Sequence record: PZ445529.1 | DNA: 43,663 bases | Direction: 5' to 3' (one strand) | Origin: a phage | Part shown: one piece after another, positions 1-43,663 of the stretch | How positions within the stretch are numbered: position 1 is the first letter of the stretch | Layout of the letters: each line of letters starts with the position of its first letter | Made by a program: the position numbers and the translations under genes | Notes under the pieces: generated by a model | Told to the model about the DNA's origin: nothing | Seen by the model: only the letters and a program-made list of their open reading frames with translations | Databases searched by the model: none

Positions 1-121
1 GGGGTGCTGTCCCGCTGTCCCGATCGGCTAAACCCCGCGGCAGCACTGGTGGGGACGGGGTGCTGTCCCGCTTTGTCCCGCCCCTTGTTTGTCCCGCTTT
101 TTGTCCCGCTTAGTTTATGCA
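1..121. repeat. 3' part of copy A of a 169-bp dispersed element; six GTCCCG iteron cores (mostly TGTCCCGC) and a 15-bp direct repeat ggggtgctgtcccgc at 1-15 and 57-71
   Basis: 1-121 is identical to 27667-27787; with 43616-43663 it reconstitutes the full element found intact at 27619-27787. Confidence 0.9.
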
Positions 122-159: not shown

Positions 160-207
160 GGCAACCAATGCGACCAGCTAAAAACACTCGAAATGGCAAC
201 CAATGCG
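160..207. repeat. two copies of 13-bp motif CGCATTGGTTGCC (reverse orientation) at 160-172 and 195-207; a third forward copy lies at 43540-43552
   Basis: Exact 13-mers read directly; they flank element copy A in inverted orientation, just 3' of the primase/helicase gene. Confidence 0.8.
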
Positions 208-2995: not shown

Positions 2996-3025
2996 TTGAC
3001 ACCTATCCTGCAACCAATCTATTAT
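2996..3025 (+). promoter_or_regulatory. main early promoter (-35 TTGACA, 18-bp spacer, -10 TATTAT) with TGCAACCAAT motif in the spacer
   Basis: ttgacacctatcctgcaaccaatctattat; drives the plus-strand early block through a ~195-nt leader. Confidence 0.55.
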
Positions 3026-3221
3026 TCCCCCCGTCGACAGGATGCAGGACGCAAACTGGAGAGGGGCAACGCAGGGGCCGGATCGAAGTGTCAGGATTCC
3101 CAACCGTGATTATATAACCCGGTCCACTACCCGAACGGGAGAACGCGCAACCGGGCAATATGTTAAGGCCACCGACGAAGTTAACTGCCGACACCTAAAC
3201 TTAACCAATCGGAGATATACC

Positions 3222-12722: not shown

Positions 12723-12727
12723 ATTGG

Positions 12728-12756
12728 TTGCATAACCATATTGGTTGCATTATATT
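12728..12756 (+). promoter_or_regulatory. sigma70-like promoter (-35 TTGCAT, 17-bp spacer, -10 TATATT) built on two direct ATTGGTTGCAT copies
   Basis: aaattggttgcataaccatattggttgcattatatt; contains TGGTT-gcat-AACCA inverted repeat. Confidence 0.5.
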
Positions 12757-14187: not shown

Positions 14188-14654
14188 AATTACTGATTTG
14201 CGATTTGGATGGCGTTATTAATGGTTCAAGCGATGCGCGTGCCGACCTGGTGCCGGGGATAAAAACGAAATCAACCTTTTGGGCAAAGTGGCACAAAGCG
14301 CATGTACGCGAAGACCTGAACATGGATATGCTGCCGCTGTTGCGCATGTACAAAGAGCAAGGCTTCGAGATCGCGTATCTGACCAACCGGCAGCTAGAAT
14401 GCTGGGAGACTACCGCCGAGCAACTGGAGGTATTCCCGGCAGGCCGGTTGTTTATGCGCCACATGCTGGACGACACCCCGCCGCCAGAGTTTAAGGCGTG
14501 CGCTGTGTTCAAAATGGTCTGCTATGCAGACGTGTCTGAACTTGTCATCATTGAGGACTGCGAGAAGAACATCGCGGCAATTCGTCGGGCGTGCGGCGAT
14601 TTGGTCCCGAAAATTTACGCAATAAACGTTGCAAAATTCACTTGCAACCAATAG
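14184..14654 (+). CDS. HAD-superfamily hydrolase (nucleotidase/phosphatase-like)
   Basis: 156 aa; motif I LICDLDGVI (DxDG). Confidence 0.55.
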   Translation: MKLLICDLDGVINGSSDARADLVPGIKTKSTFWAKWHKAHVREDLNMDMLPLLRMYKEQGFEIAYLTNRQLECWETTAEQLEVFPAGRLFMRHMLDDTPPPEFKACAVFKMVCYADVSELVIIEDCEKNIAAIRRACGDLVPKIYAINVAKFTCNQ

Positions 14655-14660
14655 GTTGGT
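14632..14660 (+). promoter_or_regulatory. promoter-like element with perfect palindrome TGCAACCAA-tagg-TTGGTTGCA
   Basis: cttgcaaccaataggttggttgcattatag; -35 TTGCAA, 17-bp spacer, -10-like TTATAG. Confidence 0.45.
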
Positions 14661-14717
14661 TGCATTATAGTTAACGCGTCGGGGGGCAATACGGCCTCCC
14701 ATAAAAAGGACCACATA

Positions 14718-17410: not shown

Positions 17411-17439
17411 TTGCAATCCAGGTTGAGCGGTGTAATACT
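17411..17439 (+). promoter_or_regulatory. promoter-like element with ATTGGTTGCAA motif (-35 TTGCAA, -10-like TAATAC) upstream of the lipoprotein gene
   Basis: cgtaaattggttgcaatccaggttgagcggtgtaatact. Confidence 0.4.
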
Positions 17440-27551: not shown

Positions 27552-27618
27552 TATGCAGTCCCCTTTTTATGCAGTTGCCGATTGTCATTGTATCAGCGAT
27601 TTTAAAACAATCCTTATT

Positions 27619-27787
27619 CAGTCTCAGACGAGGGGGGCCACTGACCCCCGTCTAGTCTGAAAGACTGGGGTGCTGTCCCGCTGTCCCGATCGGCTAAACC
27701 CCGCGGCAGCACTGGTGGGGACGGGGTGCTGTCCCGCTTTGTCCCGCCCCTTGTTTGTCCCGCTTTTTGTCCCGCTTAGTTTATGCA
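27619..27787. repeat. copy B of the 169-bp element (palindrome + GTCCCG iterons), in the gap between the GT chaperone stop and the tape measure start
   Basis: Exact match to 43616-43663 + 1-121; followed at 27826-27857 by extra inverted GGGACA/GTCCCG copies (gggacaaaacgggacgtcccgatctgtcccgc). Confidence 0.9.
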
Positions 27788-27856
27788 ATAAATTCGAATA
27801 GGTATGCACATTTCAGGGGTGGGACAAAACGGGACGTCCCGATCTGTCCCGCTGCA

Positions 27857-33387: not shown

Positions 33388-33416
33388 TTGCAATCCTCAT
33401 ATTGGTTGCATATATT
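33388..33416 (+). promoter_or_regulatory. sigma70-like promoter (-35 TTGCAA, 17-bp spacer, -10 TATATT) with two ATTGGTTGCA copies
   Basis: cttgcaatcctcatattggttgcatatattggttgcacaccaaca; the 21-mer tatattggttgcacaccaaca recurs on the minus strand at 43413-43433. Confidence 0.55.
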
Positions 33417-33445
33417 GGTTGCACACCAACAACGAGGACACACTA

Positions 33446-34210
33446 ATGAGACTGACGAAAGACATTAAAAACCAGATTCTGGCTAACATCCTGCGCGACC
33501 ACGAAATCGCAACCGAAGCCAAACAAATCATGATGGACTCTCGCGATCTGGCGTACGCAATCACGCTGGACTGTATGCCGGACGGCATTCGCACATTCGC
33601 AGCGCTCCGCGAGCATATCAAGGAAATCCGCGACGACCAGTCGCAGATGTACGGCGTCAGCGTATACACCAACAAGGCGACGTATAGTTATAACTCCGAC
33701 CGCCCGAAGGGTATCGGCAGCGTCTATAACGCCACCTTTGAAATCAACGCAGGCGGCAATGTTCGCACCTTGTCATTGAGCGGTGACGGTCGCCAATACC
33801 GCGTACATCGCGGATACTGGGAAGAGAAATATATGAATAAGCTTGCGCCTGATCTCGGCGATATCGTTCCGGGGTTCGAGACAGTTATGCTCGCGTCGGT
33901 GTGTGAAGTGGACGAGGACGGGAATGCGCTGCCGATATATCTCCCTCGCGGTCGCGTAGATTACCCGGCAGACCATGACTTCTGTAAACGCTTGGACCGC
34001 AACGACAAGGCCCGTAGCGAGTTGCGCGCGAAGTATGATGCGTTCAAACTAACCGTTACCGGTGTTCTGGACCTGCACAATACTGACAAGAAGCTGATTA
34101 AGGCATGGCCTGAAGTTGAGCAATTCATCCCTTACCCGGACAAGCCGAAGTCCACGGCGGTGGCGCTGGATGTGAAAACTCTCAACGAGATTTGCGGTAT
34201 TCCGCGCTAA
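33446..34210 (+). CDS. hypothetical protein (254 aa) on a moron transcribed antisense to the structural operon
   Basis: ATG 33446 with RBS GAGGA 7 nt upstream; no signal peptide or TM segment seen; own promoter and terminator; no motif I recognise. Confidence 0.65.
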   Translation: MRLTKDIKNQILANILRDHEIATEAKQIMMDSRDLAYAITLDCMPDGIRTFAALREHIKEIRDDQSQMYGVSVYTNKATYSYNSDRPKGIGSVYNATFEINAGGNVRTLSLSGDGRQYRVHRGYWEEKYMNKLAPDLGDIVPGFETVMLASVCEVDEDGNALPIYLPRGRVDYPADHDFCKRLDRNDKARSELRAKYDAFKLTVTGVLDLHNTDKKLIKAWPEVEQFIPYPDKPKSTAVALDVKTLNEICGIPR

Positions 34211-41878: not shown

Positions 41879-42165
41879 TTTGCGCCCCCCGGAAGGTGTA
41901 GCGTCGCAATTGTCTCCCGGATCCGGTCGGCGATTGGCATCCAGAAGATGGCAGTTACGAAGCCCAAACCGGCGACAGTGCGCTCGCCAGACAAACCAGA
42001 CCACTCGGCAATAGCTGGCGCACCAAATATGGCACACAGGAAGCCAACTACGACATATAAAACGAAGTTCAACGGCCCTTTCGTTGCCTCGCCGTGAATG
42101 CGTGCGCCCACGAAGCCACCAGCAAGACACGCAAGGGCGAATAACCACTCGTTTAGCTTATCCAT
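41875..42165 (-). CDS. holin (three predicted TM segments, charged C-terminus)
   Basis: 96 aa; hydrophobic segments WLFALACLAGGFVGA, FVLYVVVGFLCAIFGAPAIA, VAGLGFVTAIFWMPI; immediately upstream of endolysin. Confidence 0.6.
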   Translation of the reverse strand: MDKLNEWLFALACLAGGFVGARIHGEATKGPLNFVLYVVVGFLCAIFGAPAIAEWSGLSGERTVAGLGFVTAIFWMPIADRIRETIATLHLPGGAK

Positions 42166-42200
42166 AAAAAAGTCCCAGTAAGTTTTAGCTCACTGGGACT
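42166..42200 (-). terminator. intrinsic terminator (9-bp stem, 12-nt loop, TTTTTT) abutting the holin start codon
   Basis: Minus strand agtcccagt-gagctaaaactt-actgggact-tttttt-ATG. Confidence 0.6.
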
Positions 42201-42217
42201 ATATCACGCTTGCGTAA

Positions 42218-42391
42218 TTAATCGAAAATGGACCACTTACCGACGCCTTTCCATTCCCACCCTTCCGATCGGACGGCCTCGAACATCCTGCCCCCTATCA
42301 TATCCCGATACCATAGCCACCACATGCGCAACCTGGTAGGGTGCTCCGTGATACCACGGCGCTTGTATACCTCGAACGTCATGCGGGCCAT
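42218..42391 (-). CDS. hypothetical small protein (57 aa)
   Basis: ATG-initiated ORF overlapping upstream ORF end; no clear RBS. Confidence 0.3.
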   Translation of the reverse strand: MARMTFEVYKRRGITEHPTRLRMWWLWYRDMIGGRMFEAVRSEGWEWKGVGKWSIFD

Positions 42392-42480
42392 ACGACGAAC
42401 ATCAGGATGCCAAACAGCACCGCGGTAAGCAGGCACAGCCCGCAGATCAAACCAAACCAATAAATCACATCATGAATCAT
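42379..42480 (-). CDS. small hydrophobic peptide (33 aa)
   Basis: Hand-translated MIHDVIYWFGLICGLCLLTAVLFGILMFVVWPA; overlaps neighbours by about 12 nt. Confidence 0.3.
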   Translation of the reverse strand: MIHDVIYWFGLICGLCLLTAVLFGILMFVVWPA

Positions 42481-42595
42481 AATCTGCCCCATAGGTATTT
42501 AGCCAGACTACCGCGAAGACGTATAGCATCGAATTGCCCCTACCGCCTATCTCAAAGCGGTTGTGCATCAGCATATCACGGATAGCCACACTCAT
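42470..42595 (-). CDS. hypothetical small protein (41 aa)
   Basis: Hand-translated ORF; stop overlaps next start. Confidence 0.25.
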   Translation of the reverse strand: MSVAIRDMLMHNRFEIGGRGNSMLYVFAVVWLNTYGADYDS

Positions 42596-42626
42596 TTCAG
42601 AATCACCGAGCGCGGGTCAATGGCGT

Positions 42627-42818
42627 TCATGCTGCCGTCACGGCATCAAAGCGATTGACTATCTCATGCGTGACAATATCGTATTTCTCCGGCAGCTTTG
42701 CCTTACTCGCCCACCAGACACGATCGCTTGCGGCGTGGTGCAAGCGGACGTGTGCCGCAAGGGTCTGTATTGGCCTCAGGATTTTGCCATCTGCTTTACG
42801 GCGGAATAGTAATTTCAT
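42627..42818 (-). CDS. hypothetical protein (63 aa)
   Basis: ORF; start overlaps upstream stop. Confidence 0.45.
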   Translation of the reverse strand: MKLLFRRKADGKILRPIQTLAAHVRLHHAASDRVWWASKAKLPEKYDIVTHEIVNRFDAVTAA

Positions 42819-43084
42819 TTGCTCAGTCTCCAGTGTTTGCCTACCCGCTCAACGGCGGGCTTCCGGCGTAATGTAATACGGATCCCCATTGGTTGCAAGG
42901 AGGTCCGCACCCTGAAATCGTGTTGTGCTGCGAACTGGTGCAAGTAGCGAGTCTGCGTCAACGGCTTTACGTCGTCGCGATAGCACCAGAATACAGATTC
43001 ACCCTCAACCGCATTCTCAGCCCATATTCGTATGCAATGCAGGGGAATATGCCACGAAAGCTGTTTGGCGCGCCTACGGCTCAT
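42815..43084 (-). CDS. hypothetical basic protein (89 aa)
   Basis: ORF 10 nt after upstream stop. Confidence 0.45.
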   Translation of the reverse strand: MSRRRAKQLSWHIPLHCIRIWAENAVEGESVFWCYRDDVKPLTQTRYLHQFAAQHDFRVRTSLQPMGIRITLRRKPAVERVGKHWRLSK

Positions 43085-43093
43085 TTTGGCCCC

Positions 43094-43399
43094 TTATTTC
43101 GCAAGCTGGGCGAATAGTTCGCGCTGGGCTTTAATCCGGGCGACGTTTGTCACTGCCGTCTCACCGATCCCGAAGCGATACGCCAGGCGCTCACGGGCAA
43201 ATGCCTTGGCATATTCGTGAATTGCCATACGCAACGGCTTCAGGTCATCCAGGCTGGCGTCCATGCGGTAGAGCGCGTCACGAATTGATTGGTGCGCCAG
43301 TACCGCAATCTGCAGCGCCTGGTCTACGTTGCCGTTCAGTGCTTTCGCTTCTTCCAGCTTTGCCACGGCCAGGGTGTAATTCCAGATAATTGCTTTCAT
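43094..43399 (-). CDS. hypothetical protein (101 aa), first gene of the minus-strand operon leading into the lysis cassette
   Basis: ATG with RBS AGGA; promoter immediately upstream. Confidence 0.5.
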   Translation of the reverse strand: MKAIIWNYTLAVAKLEEAKALNGNVDQALQIAVLAHQSIRDALYRMDASLDDLKPLRMAIHEYAKAFARERLAYRFGIGETAVTNVARIKAQRELFAQLAK

Positions 43400-43427
43400 T
43401 GTTCAGTCCTCATGTTGGTGTGCAACC

Positions 43428-43456
43428 AATATAGCAAGGTGCCAGGCCGGATGCAA
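43428..43456 (-). promoter_or_regulatory. sigma70-like promoter (-35 TTGCAT, 17-bp spacer, -10 TATATT) with two ATTGGTTGCA copies
   Basis: Reverse complement gives ttgcat-ccggcctggcaccttgc-tatatt; shares an identical 21-mer with the promoter at 33388-33416. Confidence 0.55.
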
Positions 43457-43539
43457 CCAATATTAATCACGCGCATGAAAAAGTTGATCGCTATCTGCTG
43501 AGACTGCAAACCGCATTTTTCACTCAACATAATACAACC

Positions 43540-43552: not shown

Positions 43553-43615
43553 TAGTTCCGCGACGACCGCAATCCGCAACATGCTGCCGTGTATTTTGCA
43601 ATCCAGGATTTTATG

Positions 43616-43663
43616 CAGTCTCAGACGAGGGGGGCCACTGACCCCCGTCTAGTCTGAAAGACT
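43616..43663. repeat. 5' part of copy A of the 169-bp element (imperfect GC-rich palindrome cagtctcagacgaggggggccactgacccccgtctagtctgaaagact)
   Basis: 43616-43663 is identical to 27619-27666; window end joins window start seamlessly as in copy B. Confidence 0.9.

What the first reader, a model, noticed from the sequence alone, without database searches (positions are those of the whole stretch)
42218..43399. Operon of six small unknown proteins (33-101 aa) upstream of the lysis cassette
Six tightly packed or overlapping small ORFs follow one strong promoter (43428-43456) and end at the terminator before holin. None has a motif I recognise; one is a 33-aa hydrophobic peptide and one is strongly basic. 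This position in lambdoid-type layouts typically carries late-gene regulators, lysis timing factors or host-takeover genes.
Basis: partly seen in the sequence, partly recalled or inferred. Interest (0 to 1): 0.45.

Follow-up and report, generated by a model that had tools for sequence, protein, structure and literature searches.

The report
Half-decayed small-gene cassette of a Dhillonvirus
The six small ORFs are a conserved cassette of unknown-function genes in an HK578-like virulent coliphage (genus Dhillonvirus), but here only the first two genes are intact and the other four ORFs are remnants of four conserved genes cut by five short deletions, so this is an ordinary orphan-gene region with a lineage-specific decay.

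Summary
The window is a complete, circularly permuted Dhillonvirus genome (about 93% identical to SECphi18). It is a virulent HK578/SO-1-like siphophage, not a lambdoid one.

The transcription unit is real. A conserved promoter-like element (TTGCAT, 17 nt, TG-extended TATATT) precedes the ORFs. An invariant intrinsic terminator ends them and abuts the holin ATG.

Only ORF A (101 aa, confident four-helix bundle) and ORF B (89 aa, pI 11.1) are intact. Both are genus-wide (157 phage records each) and under purifying selection.

The other four ORFs are remnants:
- C is the first 52 residues plus a 12-residue patch of a 174-205 aa protein.
- D is a chimera of two small genes.
- The 33-aa hydrophobic peptide (E) and F are the two halves of one 95-99 aa membrane protein, split by a 25-nt deletion.

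Five deletions (270, 58, 59, 49 and 25 nt), most flanked by short direct repeats, separate this genome from every relative examined. Phage Teewinot has independently broken up the same block.

No ORF matches Pfam, NCBIfam, PADLOC or PDB, so function stays inferred. My best reading is a dispensable host-interaction module (distal genes) behind two conserved genes of unknown, possibly essential role. Interest is low to moderate.

The parts
43428..43456 (-). Promoter-like element: -35 TTGCAT (43456-43451), 17-nt spacer, TG extension, -10 TATATT (43433-43428). It is flanked by two ATTGGTTGC boxes (43461-43453 and 43430-43422).
   Evidence: Searches give the hexamers and the TG extension. One search shows conservation in 7 genomes. 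Searches show at least two further sites with the same layout in this genome (about 12728 and 33388) and a looser one near 17411. The standard scan did not report it because the -35 matches at only 3 of 6 positions.
43094..43399 (-). ORF A, 101 aa, intact. Full-length match to phrog_9839. Predicted up-down four-helix bundle. Function unknown.
   Evidence: E 4.9e-52 over profile positions 1-101 of 101; 118 protein clusters at 90% identity; every contig longer than 40 kb among them is 42.6-46 kb and all named hits are Dhillonvirus phages; 157 phage records; pLDDT 90.9; only generic helical bundles and its own family; dN/dS 0.10-0.48.
42815..43084 (-). ORF B, 89 aa, pI 11.1, intact. Full-length match to phrog_12533. 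The most conserved gene of the cassette. Function unknown.
   Evidence: E 8.5e-59; 20 clusters, full-length hits 69-94% identical; 157 records, 154 covering at least 80% of the protein; dN/dS 0-0.23; pI; the exact sequence occurs in public metagenome contigs.
42627..42818 (-). ORF C, 63 aa. Remnant of the gp52-like gene (174-205 aa in relatives). It keeps residues 1-52 plus a 12-residue patch. It is cut by an in-frame deletion of about 270 nt (junction near 42676/42675) and a 58-nt frameshifting deletion (42640/42639).
   Evidence: matches only positions 1-54 of 184 in phrog_10243..
42592..42639 (-). Orphaned, now out-of-frame 3' end of the gp52-like gene (ancestral ...DGSMNAIDPRSVILK*). It lies between the premature stop of C and the start of D.
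42470..42595 (-). ORF D, 41 aa. A chimera. Its first 18 residues come from the gp53-like gene (46-48 aa). A 59-nt deletion (42542/42541) joins them to the start of a 33-aa membrane-peptide gene (Oekolampad gp59-like). That gene is itself cut by a 49-nt deletion (42511/42510).
   Evidence: matches positions 1-22 of 46 in phrog_13628.; this exact sequence is absent from about 15 billion proteins.
42379..42480 (-). ORF E, 33 aa (37 aa from the ATG at 42492). It is the N-terminal transmembrane helix of the gp54-like gene, ended early by a 25-nt deletion between CCCGC repeats (42388/42387).
   Evidence: positions 1-33 of 100 in phrog_2531.. GRAVY 1.97.
42218..42382 (-). ORF F, 54 aa from the ATG at 42382 (the mechanical TTG ORF runs up to 42460). 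It is the C-terminal Trp/Arg-rich domain of the same gp54-like gene. Its ATG overlaps the stop of E (ATGA).
   Evidence: positions 39-96 of 100 in phrog_2531.; dN/dS 0.04-0.10; the domain also occurs in about 300 Salmonella phage records; those checked are Jerseyvirus.
42165..42200 (-). Intrinsic terminator: 12-bp stem, 6-nt loop, T6 run. The T-run leads straight into the holin ATG (42165-42163). The intergenic stretch of about 50 nt varies at only about 4 positions across 11 genomes.
42198..42206 (-). Candidate extended -10 promoter, TGATATAGT, overlapping the 5' arm of the terminator. Transcripts started here would lack the hairpin. This is inference only.
   Evidence: invariant in 11 genomes; the motif is unique in the window at 0 mismatches.

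Best explanation
This is the genus-specific small-gene cassette of a Dhillonvirus. It lies between the helicase-primase gene with its origin-like repeat region and the lysis genes.

Host RNA polymerase most likely transcribes it from a conserved promoter with a TG-extended -10. That promoter belongs to a family of phage promoters marked by the box ATTGGTTGC. Transcription most likely ends at an invariant hairpin terminator that touches the holin start codon.

In this genome only the first two genes are functional: A (a four-helix bundle) and B (a small, very basic protein). Both are present in essentially every sequenced member of the genus and are under purifying selection.

The four downstream ORFs are not genes in their own right. 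They are what remains of four conserved genes: a 174-205 aa soluble protein, a 46-48 aa protein, a 33-aa membrane peptide and a 95-99 aa membrane-anchored protein. Five deletions of 25-270 nt cut them. Four of the five are flanked by short direct repeats, which points to slippage or illegitimate recombination.

The anatomy above is shown. The following is inferred:
- The distal genes form a dispensable accessory module acting on the host cell or envelope. Candidate roles are takeover, exclusion, anti-defence, or being a trigger for host immunity. The module can be lost without killing the phage.
- A and B carry the indispensable function of the cassette.
For: Identity of the genome:
- 158 phage records match the region.
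- The window is 93.2% identical to SECphi18 over 25 kb.
- Gene order matches HK578, SO-1 and Oekolampad.

Remnant status of C-F:
- PHROG profile coverage is partial: 54 of 184, 22 of 46, and 1-33 plus 39-96 of one 100-position profile.
- Alignments with six relatives, and then with the closest relative L009, show deletions of 270, 58, 59, 49 and 25 nt. Exact microhomologies are 3-5 nt at four of the five junctions and none at the 59-nt one. Imperfect repeats of 12 nt (270-nt deletion) and 8 nt (59-nt deletion) also flank two junctions.
- Intact versions occur in every relative fetched, including contigs that encode the identical B protein.
- None of the 40 best of 146 phage records is collinear with this stretch.
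- The exact remnant proteins are absent from about 15 billion proteins.

Genus-wide presence: A in 157 records, B in 157, gp52-like in 156, gp54-like in about 155.

Selection: dN/dS is 0.10-0.48 for A and 0-0.23 for B.

Dispensability:
- Teewinot independently carries five different deletions, 876 nt in total, in the same block. It keeps A, B and the terminator.
- BF9 lacks most of gp52-like.

Deletions confined to this block: elsewhere the window is collinear with SECphi18, with few indels, most of them in-frame.

Promoter and terminator: conserved.

Mosaic gene content: the small ORFs are joined by a repeated linker, GGAGACTGAGCAAATGA.

Precedent in the genus: other small non-essential proteins act as an immune trigger (Ksap1, PMC11564622) or an anti-defence protein (anti-Tmn, PMC11846954).
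Against: - No functional evidence exists for any gene. There are no hits in Pfam, NCBIfam, PADLOC or PDB.
- The only proteomics paper found did not report these proteins (PMC10673088).
- The gp52-like and gp54-like genes are near-universal in the genus, which argues they usually matter.
- The F fragment still shows dN/dS 0.04-0.10 and has an ATGA-coupled start. It might therefore still be made and be active.
- Five deletions alongside only about 4 window-specific substitutions fit poorly with slow neutral decay. The cause is open: selection, a single complex event, or an artefact.
- I cannot verify that the sequenced phage is viable, or that the assembly is correct.
Confidence: 0.75

Rival explanations
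1. There are six genuine small proteins in one operon, among them late-gene regulators or lysis-timing factors, as in lambdoid phages.
For: - The position is between the replication and lysis genes.
- The promoter-like element and terminator are real.
- All ORFs have plausible starts, and several are translationally coupled.
- B is very basic.
Against: - C, D, E and F are fragments of larger or different genes.
- The phage is not lambdoid.
- There is no similarity to Q, N, Nin, holin or antiholin families.
- There is no boxB-like RNA hairpin.
Confidence: 0.07
2. The deletions are sequencing or assembly artefacts, or arose during DNA amplification. The real phage carries the intact cassette.
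For: - There are five deletions in about 1.1 kb but only about 4 private substitutions.
- No public sequence carries the two junctions that were scanned.
- The exact remnant proteins are found nowhere else.
Against: - Deletions of 25-270 nt at 3-5 nt (imperfectly up to 12 nt) direct repeats are not typical read errors or de Bruijn graph collapses. This rests on general knowledge.
- The rest of the genome is clean.
- Teewinot, sequenced independently, shows the same kind of multi-deletion pattern in the same block.
Confidence: 0.1
3. A and/or B regulate the lysis or late genes. They would let RNA polymerase read through the invariant terminator in front of the holin gene, or activate the extended -10 element embedded in it. 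This is compatible with the best explanation for ORFs C-F.
For: - A and B are the only cassette genes retained in both decayed genomes, together with the invariant terminator-holin junction.
- No standard promoter lies between the terminator and the holin ATG.
- B has pI 11.1 and an Arg-rich N-terminus.
Against: - There is no homology to any antiterminator or transcription factor.
- A is a plain helical bundle without a DNA-binding fold match.
- Some deposited B homologues are annotated without the N-terminal 30 residues.
- There is no nut-like hairpin.
Confidence: 0.15
4. The split gp54-like gene is still functional as two polypeptides. E would be a membrane peptide, and F a soluble domain made by termination-reinitiation at the ATGA overlap.
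For: - The stop of E overlaps an in-frame ancestral ATG of F.
- F shows no excess of amino-acid changes (dN/dS 0.04-0.10).
Against: - The 25-nt deletion removes the linker and uncouples the conserved domain from its membrane anchor.
- The low dN/dS is equally explained by a recent deletion.
- Teewinot has lost most of this gene entirely.
Confidence: 0.15

Closest known systems
The HK578 gp48-gp54, SO-1 gp49-gp53 and Oekolampad gp53-gp60 cluster of hypothetical genes in Dhillonvirus genomes
   Same: Same position, strand, promoter-like element, terminator and downstream holin-holin-endolysin genes. A and B are full-length orthologues (B 77-99% identical, A 52-89%).
   Different: This genome lacks the gp48-like first gene and the 50-aa ORFs. 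Those are natural polymorphisms also seen in other genomes. Its gp52-, gp53-, gp59- and gp54-like genes are cut by five private deletions.
Escherichia phage vB_EcoD_Teewinot (NC_073053.1)
   Same: It shows independent multi-deletion decay of the same block between B and the terminator. A, B and the terminator are retained.
   Different: The junctions are different and the loss is larger (876 nt in total, including one 723-nt deletion). No junction is shared, so the two events are convergent, not inherited.
The nin region of phage lambda (small non-essential ORFs between the replication genes and Q/lysis). This comparison is from general knowledge.
   Same: It is a block of small, partly dispensable ORFs between the replication and lysis modules, and it tolerates deletion (nin5).
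   Different: No sequence or profile similarity to Nin proteins or Q. The phage is virulent. The terminator lies after the ORFs, not before them.
Ksap1 and anti-Tmn, small accessory proteins of Dhillonvirus (PMC11564622, PMC11846954)
   Same: They are confined or nearly confined to the genus, small and non-essential. Ksap1 is lost by deletion or frameshift under immune pressure.
   Different: They are encoded elsewhere in the genome and have no sequence relation to the cassette. A role in defence or counter-defence for the cassette is only an analogy.

Membership tests
Genus Dhillonvirus (HK578/SO-1-like phages) | Genome-wide nucleotide similarity and shared gene order with type members | tested here: met
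   The window is 93.2% identical to SECphi18 over 25 kb. It is collinear across the genome. Gene order is the same as in HK578, SO-1 and Oekolampad.
phrog_9839 (ORF A) and phrog_12533 (ORF B) | Full-length match to the family profile | tested here: met
   A matches positions 1-101 of 101 at E 4.9e-52. B matches 1-89 of 89 at E 8.5e-59.
phrog_10243 (gp52-like, about 184 aa) | Full-length protein with the conserved central and C-terminal motifs | tested here: not met
   ORF C covers only profile positions 1-54. It lacks the conserved motifs DIERGDVLRDIRDG, GMTYFGL, YERVGRKY and GVGFIRV.
phrog_2531 (gp54-like membrane protein, 95-100 aa) | One ORF containing both the N-terminal transmembrane helix and the C-terminal Trp-rich domain | tested here: not met
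   The gene is split into E (positions 1-33) and F (positions 39-96) by a 25-nt frameshifting deletion.
Lambda-type antiterminators (Q, N) and Nin proteins | Profile similarity to the protein families. For N, an Arg-rich motif together with a boxB hairpin in the transcript. | tested here: not met
   No Pfam or NCBIfam hit. hhalign of the B family against lambda N gives 0.2% probability. No GNRNA-pentaloop hairpin with a GC-rich stem; the one weak match has a single G-C pair and lies inside F.
Intrinsic (Rho-independent) terminator | A GC-containing hairpin directly followed by a T-run, on the transcribed strand, at the end of the unit | tested here: met
   12-bp stem, 6 G-C pairs, T6 run. The 76-nt stretch around it folds at -25 kcal/mol, z = -5.07. 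It is invariant in 11 genomes. Termination itself was not measured.
Sigma-70 promoter | -35 and -10 hexamers at 16-18 nt spacing, or an extended -10 | tested here: inconclusive
   The -10 TATATT matches at 5 of 6 positions and has a TG extension. The -35 TTGCAT matches at 3 of 6. The spacer is 17 nt. The standard scan did not report it. It is conserved in 7 genomes and recurs in the genome. No transcription start data are available.
Holin, antiholin or spanin (lysis proteins) | Family similarity, or the characteristic topology inside the lysis cassette | tested here: not met
   No family hits. The ORFs lie upstream of the terminator. Dhillonvirus spanins belong to the Jersey-type overlapped family reported elsewhere (PMC6139136).
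Known anti-phage defence system proteins (PADLOC) | Profile match | tested here: not met
   No hit for A, B or the intact relatives of C-F.

The most novel reading that the evidence does not exclude
The distal genes (gp52-like to gp54-like) form one functional unit that is repeatedly destroyed under selection. One possible reason is that a host immune system senses one of its products, as KpAvs2 senses Ksap1. Meanwhile A, B and the invariant terminator with its embedded extended -10 element form the switch that turns on the lysis genes. A further speculative thread is that the gp52-like protein carries a 28-residue stretch resembling the beta'-binding helix of the RNA polymerase omega subunit, and might target host RNA polymerase.
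Probability: 0.12. Interest if true: 0.55.

Novelty: new member of a known kind. Interest (0 to 1): 0.25.

Why it matters
Mostly this is a correction. Four of the six 'unknown small proteins' should not be annotated or chased as new genes. They are remnants of known conserved hypothetical genes.

The useful by-product is a natural dissection of the cassette. Two independent phages have lost the distal genes but kept A, B and the terminator-holin junction. That points experiments at A and B as the indispensable part, and at the gp52-gp54 block as a dispensable, possibly counter-selected, host-interaction module in a phage genus used for therapy and for defence-system research.

Tried and rejected
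- **B as a lambda N-like antiterminator.** The N-terminus MSRRRAKQLSW resembles the N Arg-rich motif by eye. hhalign gives 0.2% probability and there is no boxB-like hairpin. Rejected.
- **gp54-like protein as a spanin or holin.** No family hits. The spanins of this genus are assigned elsewhere. Rejected.
- **Structure of the gp52-like protein.** The model has pLDDT 48.7, which is unusable, so no fold search was run.
- **Omega-subunit similarity of the gp52-like protein.** The PDB profile search gives E 0.37 and pairwise hhalign gives 41% probability. Pfam gives no support. Kept only as a lead.
- **Cassette genes as Ksap1 or anti-Tmn.** Both are encoded elsewhere in Dhillonvirus genomes. Rejected.
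- **Searches for the deletion junctions.** The two junctions scanned are absent from IMG/VR, and one of them is also absent from JGI metagenomes. Three IMG/VR hits to an 18-mer are unrelated sequences. The region has no match in E. coli genomes.
- **Rfam.** Nothing reaches a gathering score.
- **Proteomics of phage EE09** (PMC10673088).
- **Private-substitution count.** A MAFFT-based count was distorted by misalignment at 42475-42541. Only sites outside that stretch were used.

Full report
**What the window is**

The region and its surroundings match 158 phage records, almost all of them Escherichia phages of the genus Dhillonvirus. A 25-kb stretch is 93.2% identical to SECphi18. The whole window is collinear with that genome.

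The gene order on the minus strand is helicase-primase, a repeat-rich intergenic region, small ORFs, holin, holin, endolysin. This is the order annotated in HK578, SO-1 and Oekolampad. The window is therefore a complete, circularly permuted genome of a virulent HK578-like siphophage. It opens inside the intergenic region just upstream of the finding. It is not a lambdoid phage.

**Checking the observation**

Six ORFs lie on the minus strand:

| ORF | Coordinates | Length |
|---|---|---|
| A | 43399-43094 | 101 aa |
| B | 43084-42815 | 89 aa |
| C | 42818-42627 | 63 aa |
| D | 42595-42470 | 41 aa |
| E | 42480-42379 | 33 aa |
| F | 42382-42218 | 54 aa (a longer TTG ORF runs up to 42460) |

B has pI 11.1 and E has a GRAVY score of 1.97.

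The -35 hexamer matches the consensus at only 3 of 6 positions, so the standard scan missed it. The -10 hexamer has a TG extension. The element is conserved in seven genomes.

The same layout recurs in the window. The box ATTGGTTGC overlaps the -35 and is followed by a 17-nt spacer and TATATT at about 12728 and 33388. A looser version lies near 17411.

The terminator at 42200-42171 has a 12-bp stem and a T6 run. The 76-nt stretch around it folds at -25 kcal/mol with z = -5.07. The T-run leads directly into the holin ATG. The intergenic stretch of about 50 nt varies at only about 4 positions across 11 genomes whose flanking genes differ at 10-60% of synonymous sites. The transcription unit is therefore real.

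**What the ORFs are**

PHROG profiles give the key result:
- A and B match their families from end to end.
- C matches only positions 1-54 of a 184-position family.
- D matches only positions 1-22 of a 46-position family.
- E and F match positions 1-33 and 39-96 of one and the same 100-position family.

I aligned the window with six relatives and then with the closest relative, a metagenome contig (L009) that encodes the identical B protein. Between the stop of B and the terminator the window carries five private deletions:

| Deletion | Gene affected | Effect | Junction |
|---|---|---|---|
| about 270 nt | gp52-like | in frame | about 42676/42675, imperfect 12-nt repeat |
| 58 nt | gp52-like | frameshift | 42640/42639, GACG repeat |
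| 59 nt | gp53-like | frameshift | 42542/42541, no exact repeat (imperfect 8-nt) |
| 49 nt | 33-aa membrane-peptide gene (Oekolampad gp59-like) | frameshift | 42511/42510, TAGT repeat |
| 25 nt | gp54-like | frameshift | 42388/42387, CCCGC repeat |

The consequences for the ORFs are these:
- C is the first 52 residues of a 174-205 aa protein plus a 12-residue patch. It lacks all the strongly conserved motifs.
- D is a chimera of two genes.
- E is the transmembrane helix of the gp54-like protein.
- F is the cytoplasmic, Trp/Arg-rich domain of that same protein.

The absence of the gp48-like first gene and of the 50-aa ORFs is ordinary polymorphism. It is shared with other genomes and is mediated by a repeated linker, GGAGACTGAGCAAATGA, that joins the small genes.

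**How unusual the decay is**

All four affected gene families, and A and B, are near-universal in the genus:

| Gene | Phage records with a match | Records covering at least 80% |
|---|---|---|
| A | 157 | 155 |
| B | 157 | 154 |
| gp52-like | 156 | 147 |
| gp54-like | about 155 (Dhillonvirus) | about 155 |

Further points:
- None of the 40 best of 146 matching phage records is collinear with window 42210-42830. All span 560-1150 nt where the aligned window stretch is 430-620 nt.
- Every relative fetched has intact genes.
- The exact remnant proteins are absent from a collection of about 15 billion proteins, whereas the exact B protein is present.
- The two junction k-mers scanned are absent from IMG/VR, and one of them also from JGI metagenomes.
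- Outside this block the window differs from SECphi18 by few indels, most of them in-frame.
- The remnants carry only about four private substitutions.
- F still shows dN/dS 0.04-0.10.

The deletions are therefore recent relative to the divergence from known relatives.

There is a precedent. Phage Teewinot, the smallest genome of the set at 41.8 kb, carries five different deletions in the same block (12, 48, 28, 723 and 65 nt). It retains A, B and the terminator. BF9 has lost most of the gp52-like gene only.

Deletions of this size at short direct repeats are not typical sequencing errors. I still leave about 10% for an artefact, because five events with so few substitutions is odd. I cannot distinguish between selection for loss, one complex template-switching event, and relaxed selection.

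**Function**

No protein of the cassette, and no intact relative, matches Pfam, NCBIfam, PADLOC or the PDB.
- A is predicted with high confidence (pLDDT 90.9) as an up-down four-helix bundle. Fold searches return only generic bundles and A's own family, so the helix-turn-helix idea fails.
- B is restricted to the genus and very conserved. It has no detectable relation to lambda N, and the transcript has no boxB-like hairpin.
- The model of the gp52-like protein is too poor to use.
- The C-terminal domain of the gp54-like protein also occurs in about 300 Salmonella phage records (those checked are Jerseyvirus), again among small ORFs next to the lysis genes. It is rare beyond these phages: 9 representative clusters.
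- A and B are under purifying selection, with dN/dS 0.10-0.48 and 0-0.23.

The inferences are these:
- The distal genes are dispensable for propagation. They are mosaic in content. The gp52-like family is highly diversified within the genus, with 429 clusters at 90% identity. This fits an accessory role directed at the host.
- Other small Dhillonvirus proteins of this type are an immune trigger (Ksap1, PMC11564622) and an anti-defence factor (anti-Tmn, PMC11846954), but both are encoded elsewhere.
- A and B, retained in both decayed genomes, are the candidates for an indispensable role. A role in expression of the lysis genes is possible. No standard promoter lies between the terminator and the holin ATG, and an invariant TG-extended -10 (TGATATAGT, 42206-42198) overlaps the 5' arm of the hairpin. 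That role is untested.

**Verdict**

The thing itself is a further, half-decayed copy of a cassette already deposited as 'hypothetical proteins' in more than 150 genomes. Interest is low to moderate.

Noticed in passing
window 161-204, 3010, 12723-12748, 14644-14663, 17406, 33401-33422, 43422-43461, 43543 (both strands): The 9-mer ATTGGTTGC occurs 13 times, against 0.54 expected. It usually sits in pairs at promoter-like sites, where it overlaps the -35 TTGCA(T/A). At about 14641-14663 it forms a perfect palindrome, TGCAACCAAcctATTGGTTGCA. It may mark a family of phage promoters, or the operator of a phage DNA-binding protein.
   Followed up: partly
window 8-109 and 27674-27852 (minus strand); 43611-43663 plus 1-121 versus 27614-27787: The 8-mer GCGGGACA occurs 13 times, against 2.15 expected, in two clusters. 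About 175 nt of the intergenic region upstream of the cassette is duplicated (89-94% identical by way of the SECphi18 copies) between the tail genes. This corresponds to regions B and A annotated in SO-1 as repeat regions. It looks like iterons of a replication origin.
   Followed up: partly
window 42165-42217 (minus strand): The stretch of about 50 nt between the last cassette ORF and the holin ATG is almost invariant in 11 genomes. A TG-extended -10 (TGATATAGT) overlaps the 5' arm of the terminator, so transcripts started there could not form the hairpin. This could be a promoter-within-terminator arrangement for the lysis genes.
   Followed up: partly
L017 (Teewinot, NC_073053.1) 1900-2340: This phage shows independent decay of the same gene block by five different deletions (876 nt in total). 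One is a 723-nt deletion that fuses the gp52-like and gp54-like reading frames. A, B and the terminator are intact.
   Followed up: yes
relatives: Oekolampad gp57 residues 136-163; the retained patch in window ORF C (about 42672-42640): The gp52-like family has a 28-residue stretch (IRQATREIVNRFDAVTNAQRQAREYGVG) that is 46% identical to residues 6-33 of the E. coli RNA polymerase omega subunit. The PDB profile search gives E 0.37 and pairwise hhalign gives 41% probability. It may be chance, or a hint of RNA polymerase binding.
   Followed up: partly
window 42815-42831; relatives L003, L005, L009: The small genes of the cassette are joined by a repeated 17-nt linker, GGAGACTGAGCAAATGA (Shine-Dalgarno sequence plus a stop/start overlap). 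The presence or absence of the 50-aa ORFs among genomes maps to recombination at this linker.
   Followed up: partly
L012 (Salmonella phage PIZ SAE-01E2) 3001-3210: The C-terminal domain of the gp54-like protein has homologues about 40% identical in roughly 300 Salmonella phage records; the one examined is a Jerseyvirus. There it lies in a run of small ORFs between the lysis cassette and the terminase genes, and is partly unannotated.
   Followed up: partly
window 43396-43530 (minus strand): A 44-aa ORF overlaps the promoter. Some deposited genomes fuse it to A, giving 145-159 aa annotations. In others, such as Oekolampad, the extension comes from a different upstream gene. The ORF over the promoter looks like an annotation artefact.
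   Followed up: partly
window 33388-33460 (plus strand): A single plus-strand gene among the minus-strand structural genes is the counterpart of the SECphi18 gene annotated 'nucleotide modification associated protein'. Its promoter and 5' leader (TATATTGGTTGCACACCAACAACGAGGAC) are nearly identical to those of the cassette, which suggests co-regulation.
   Followed up: no
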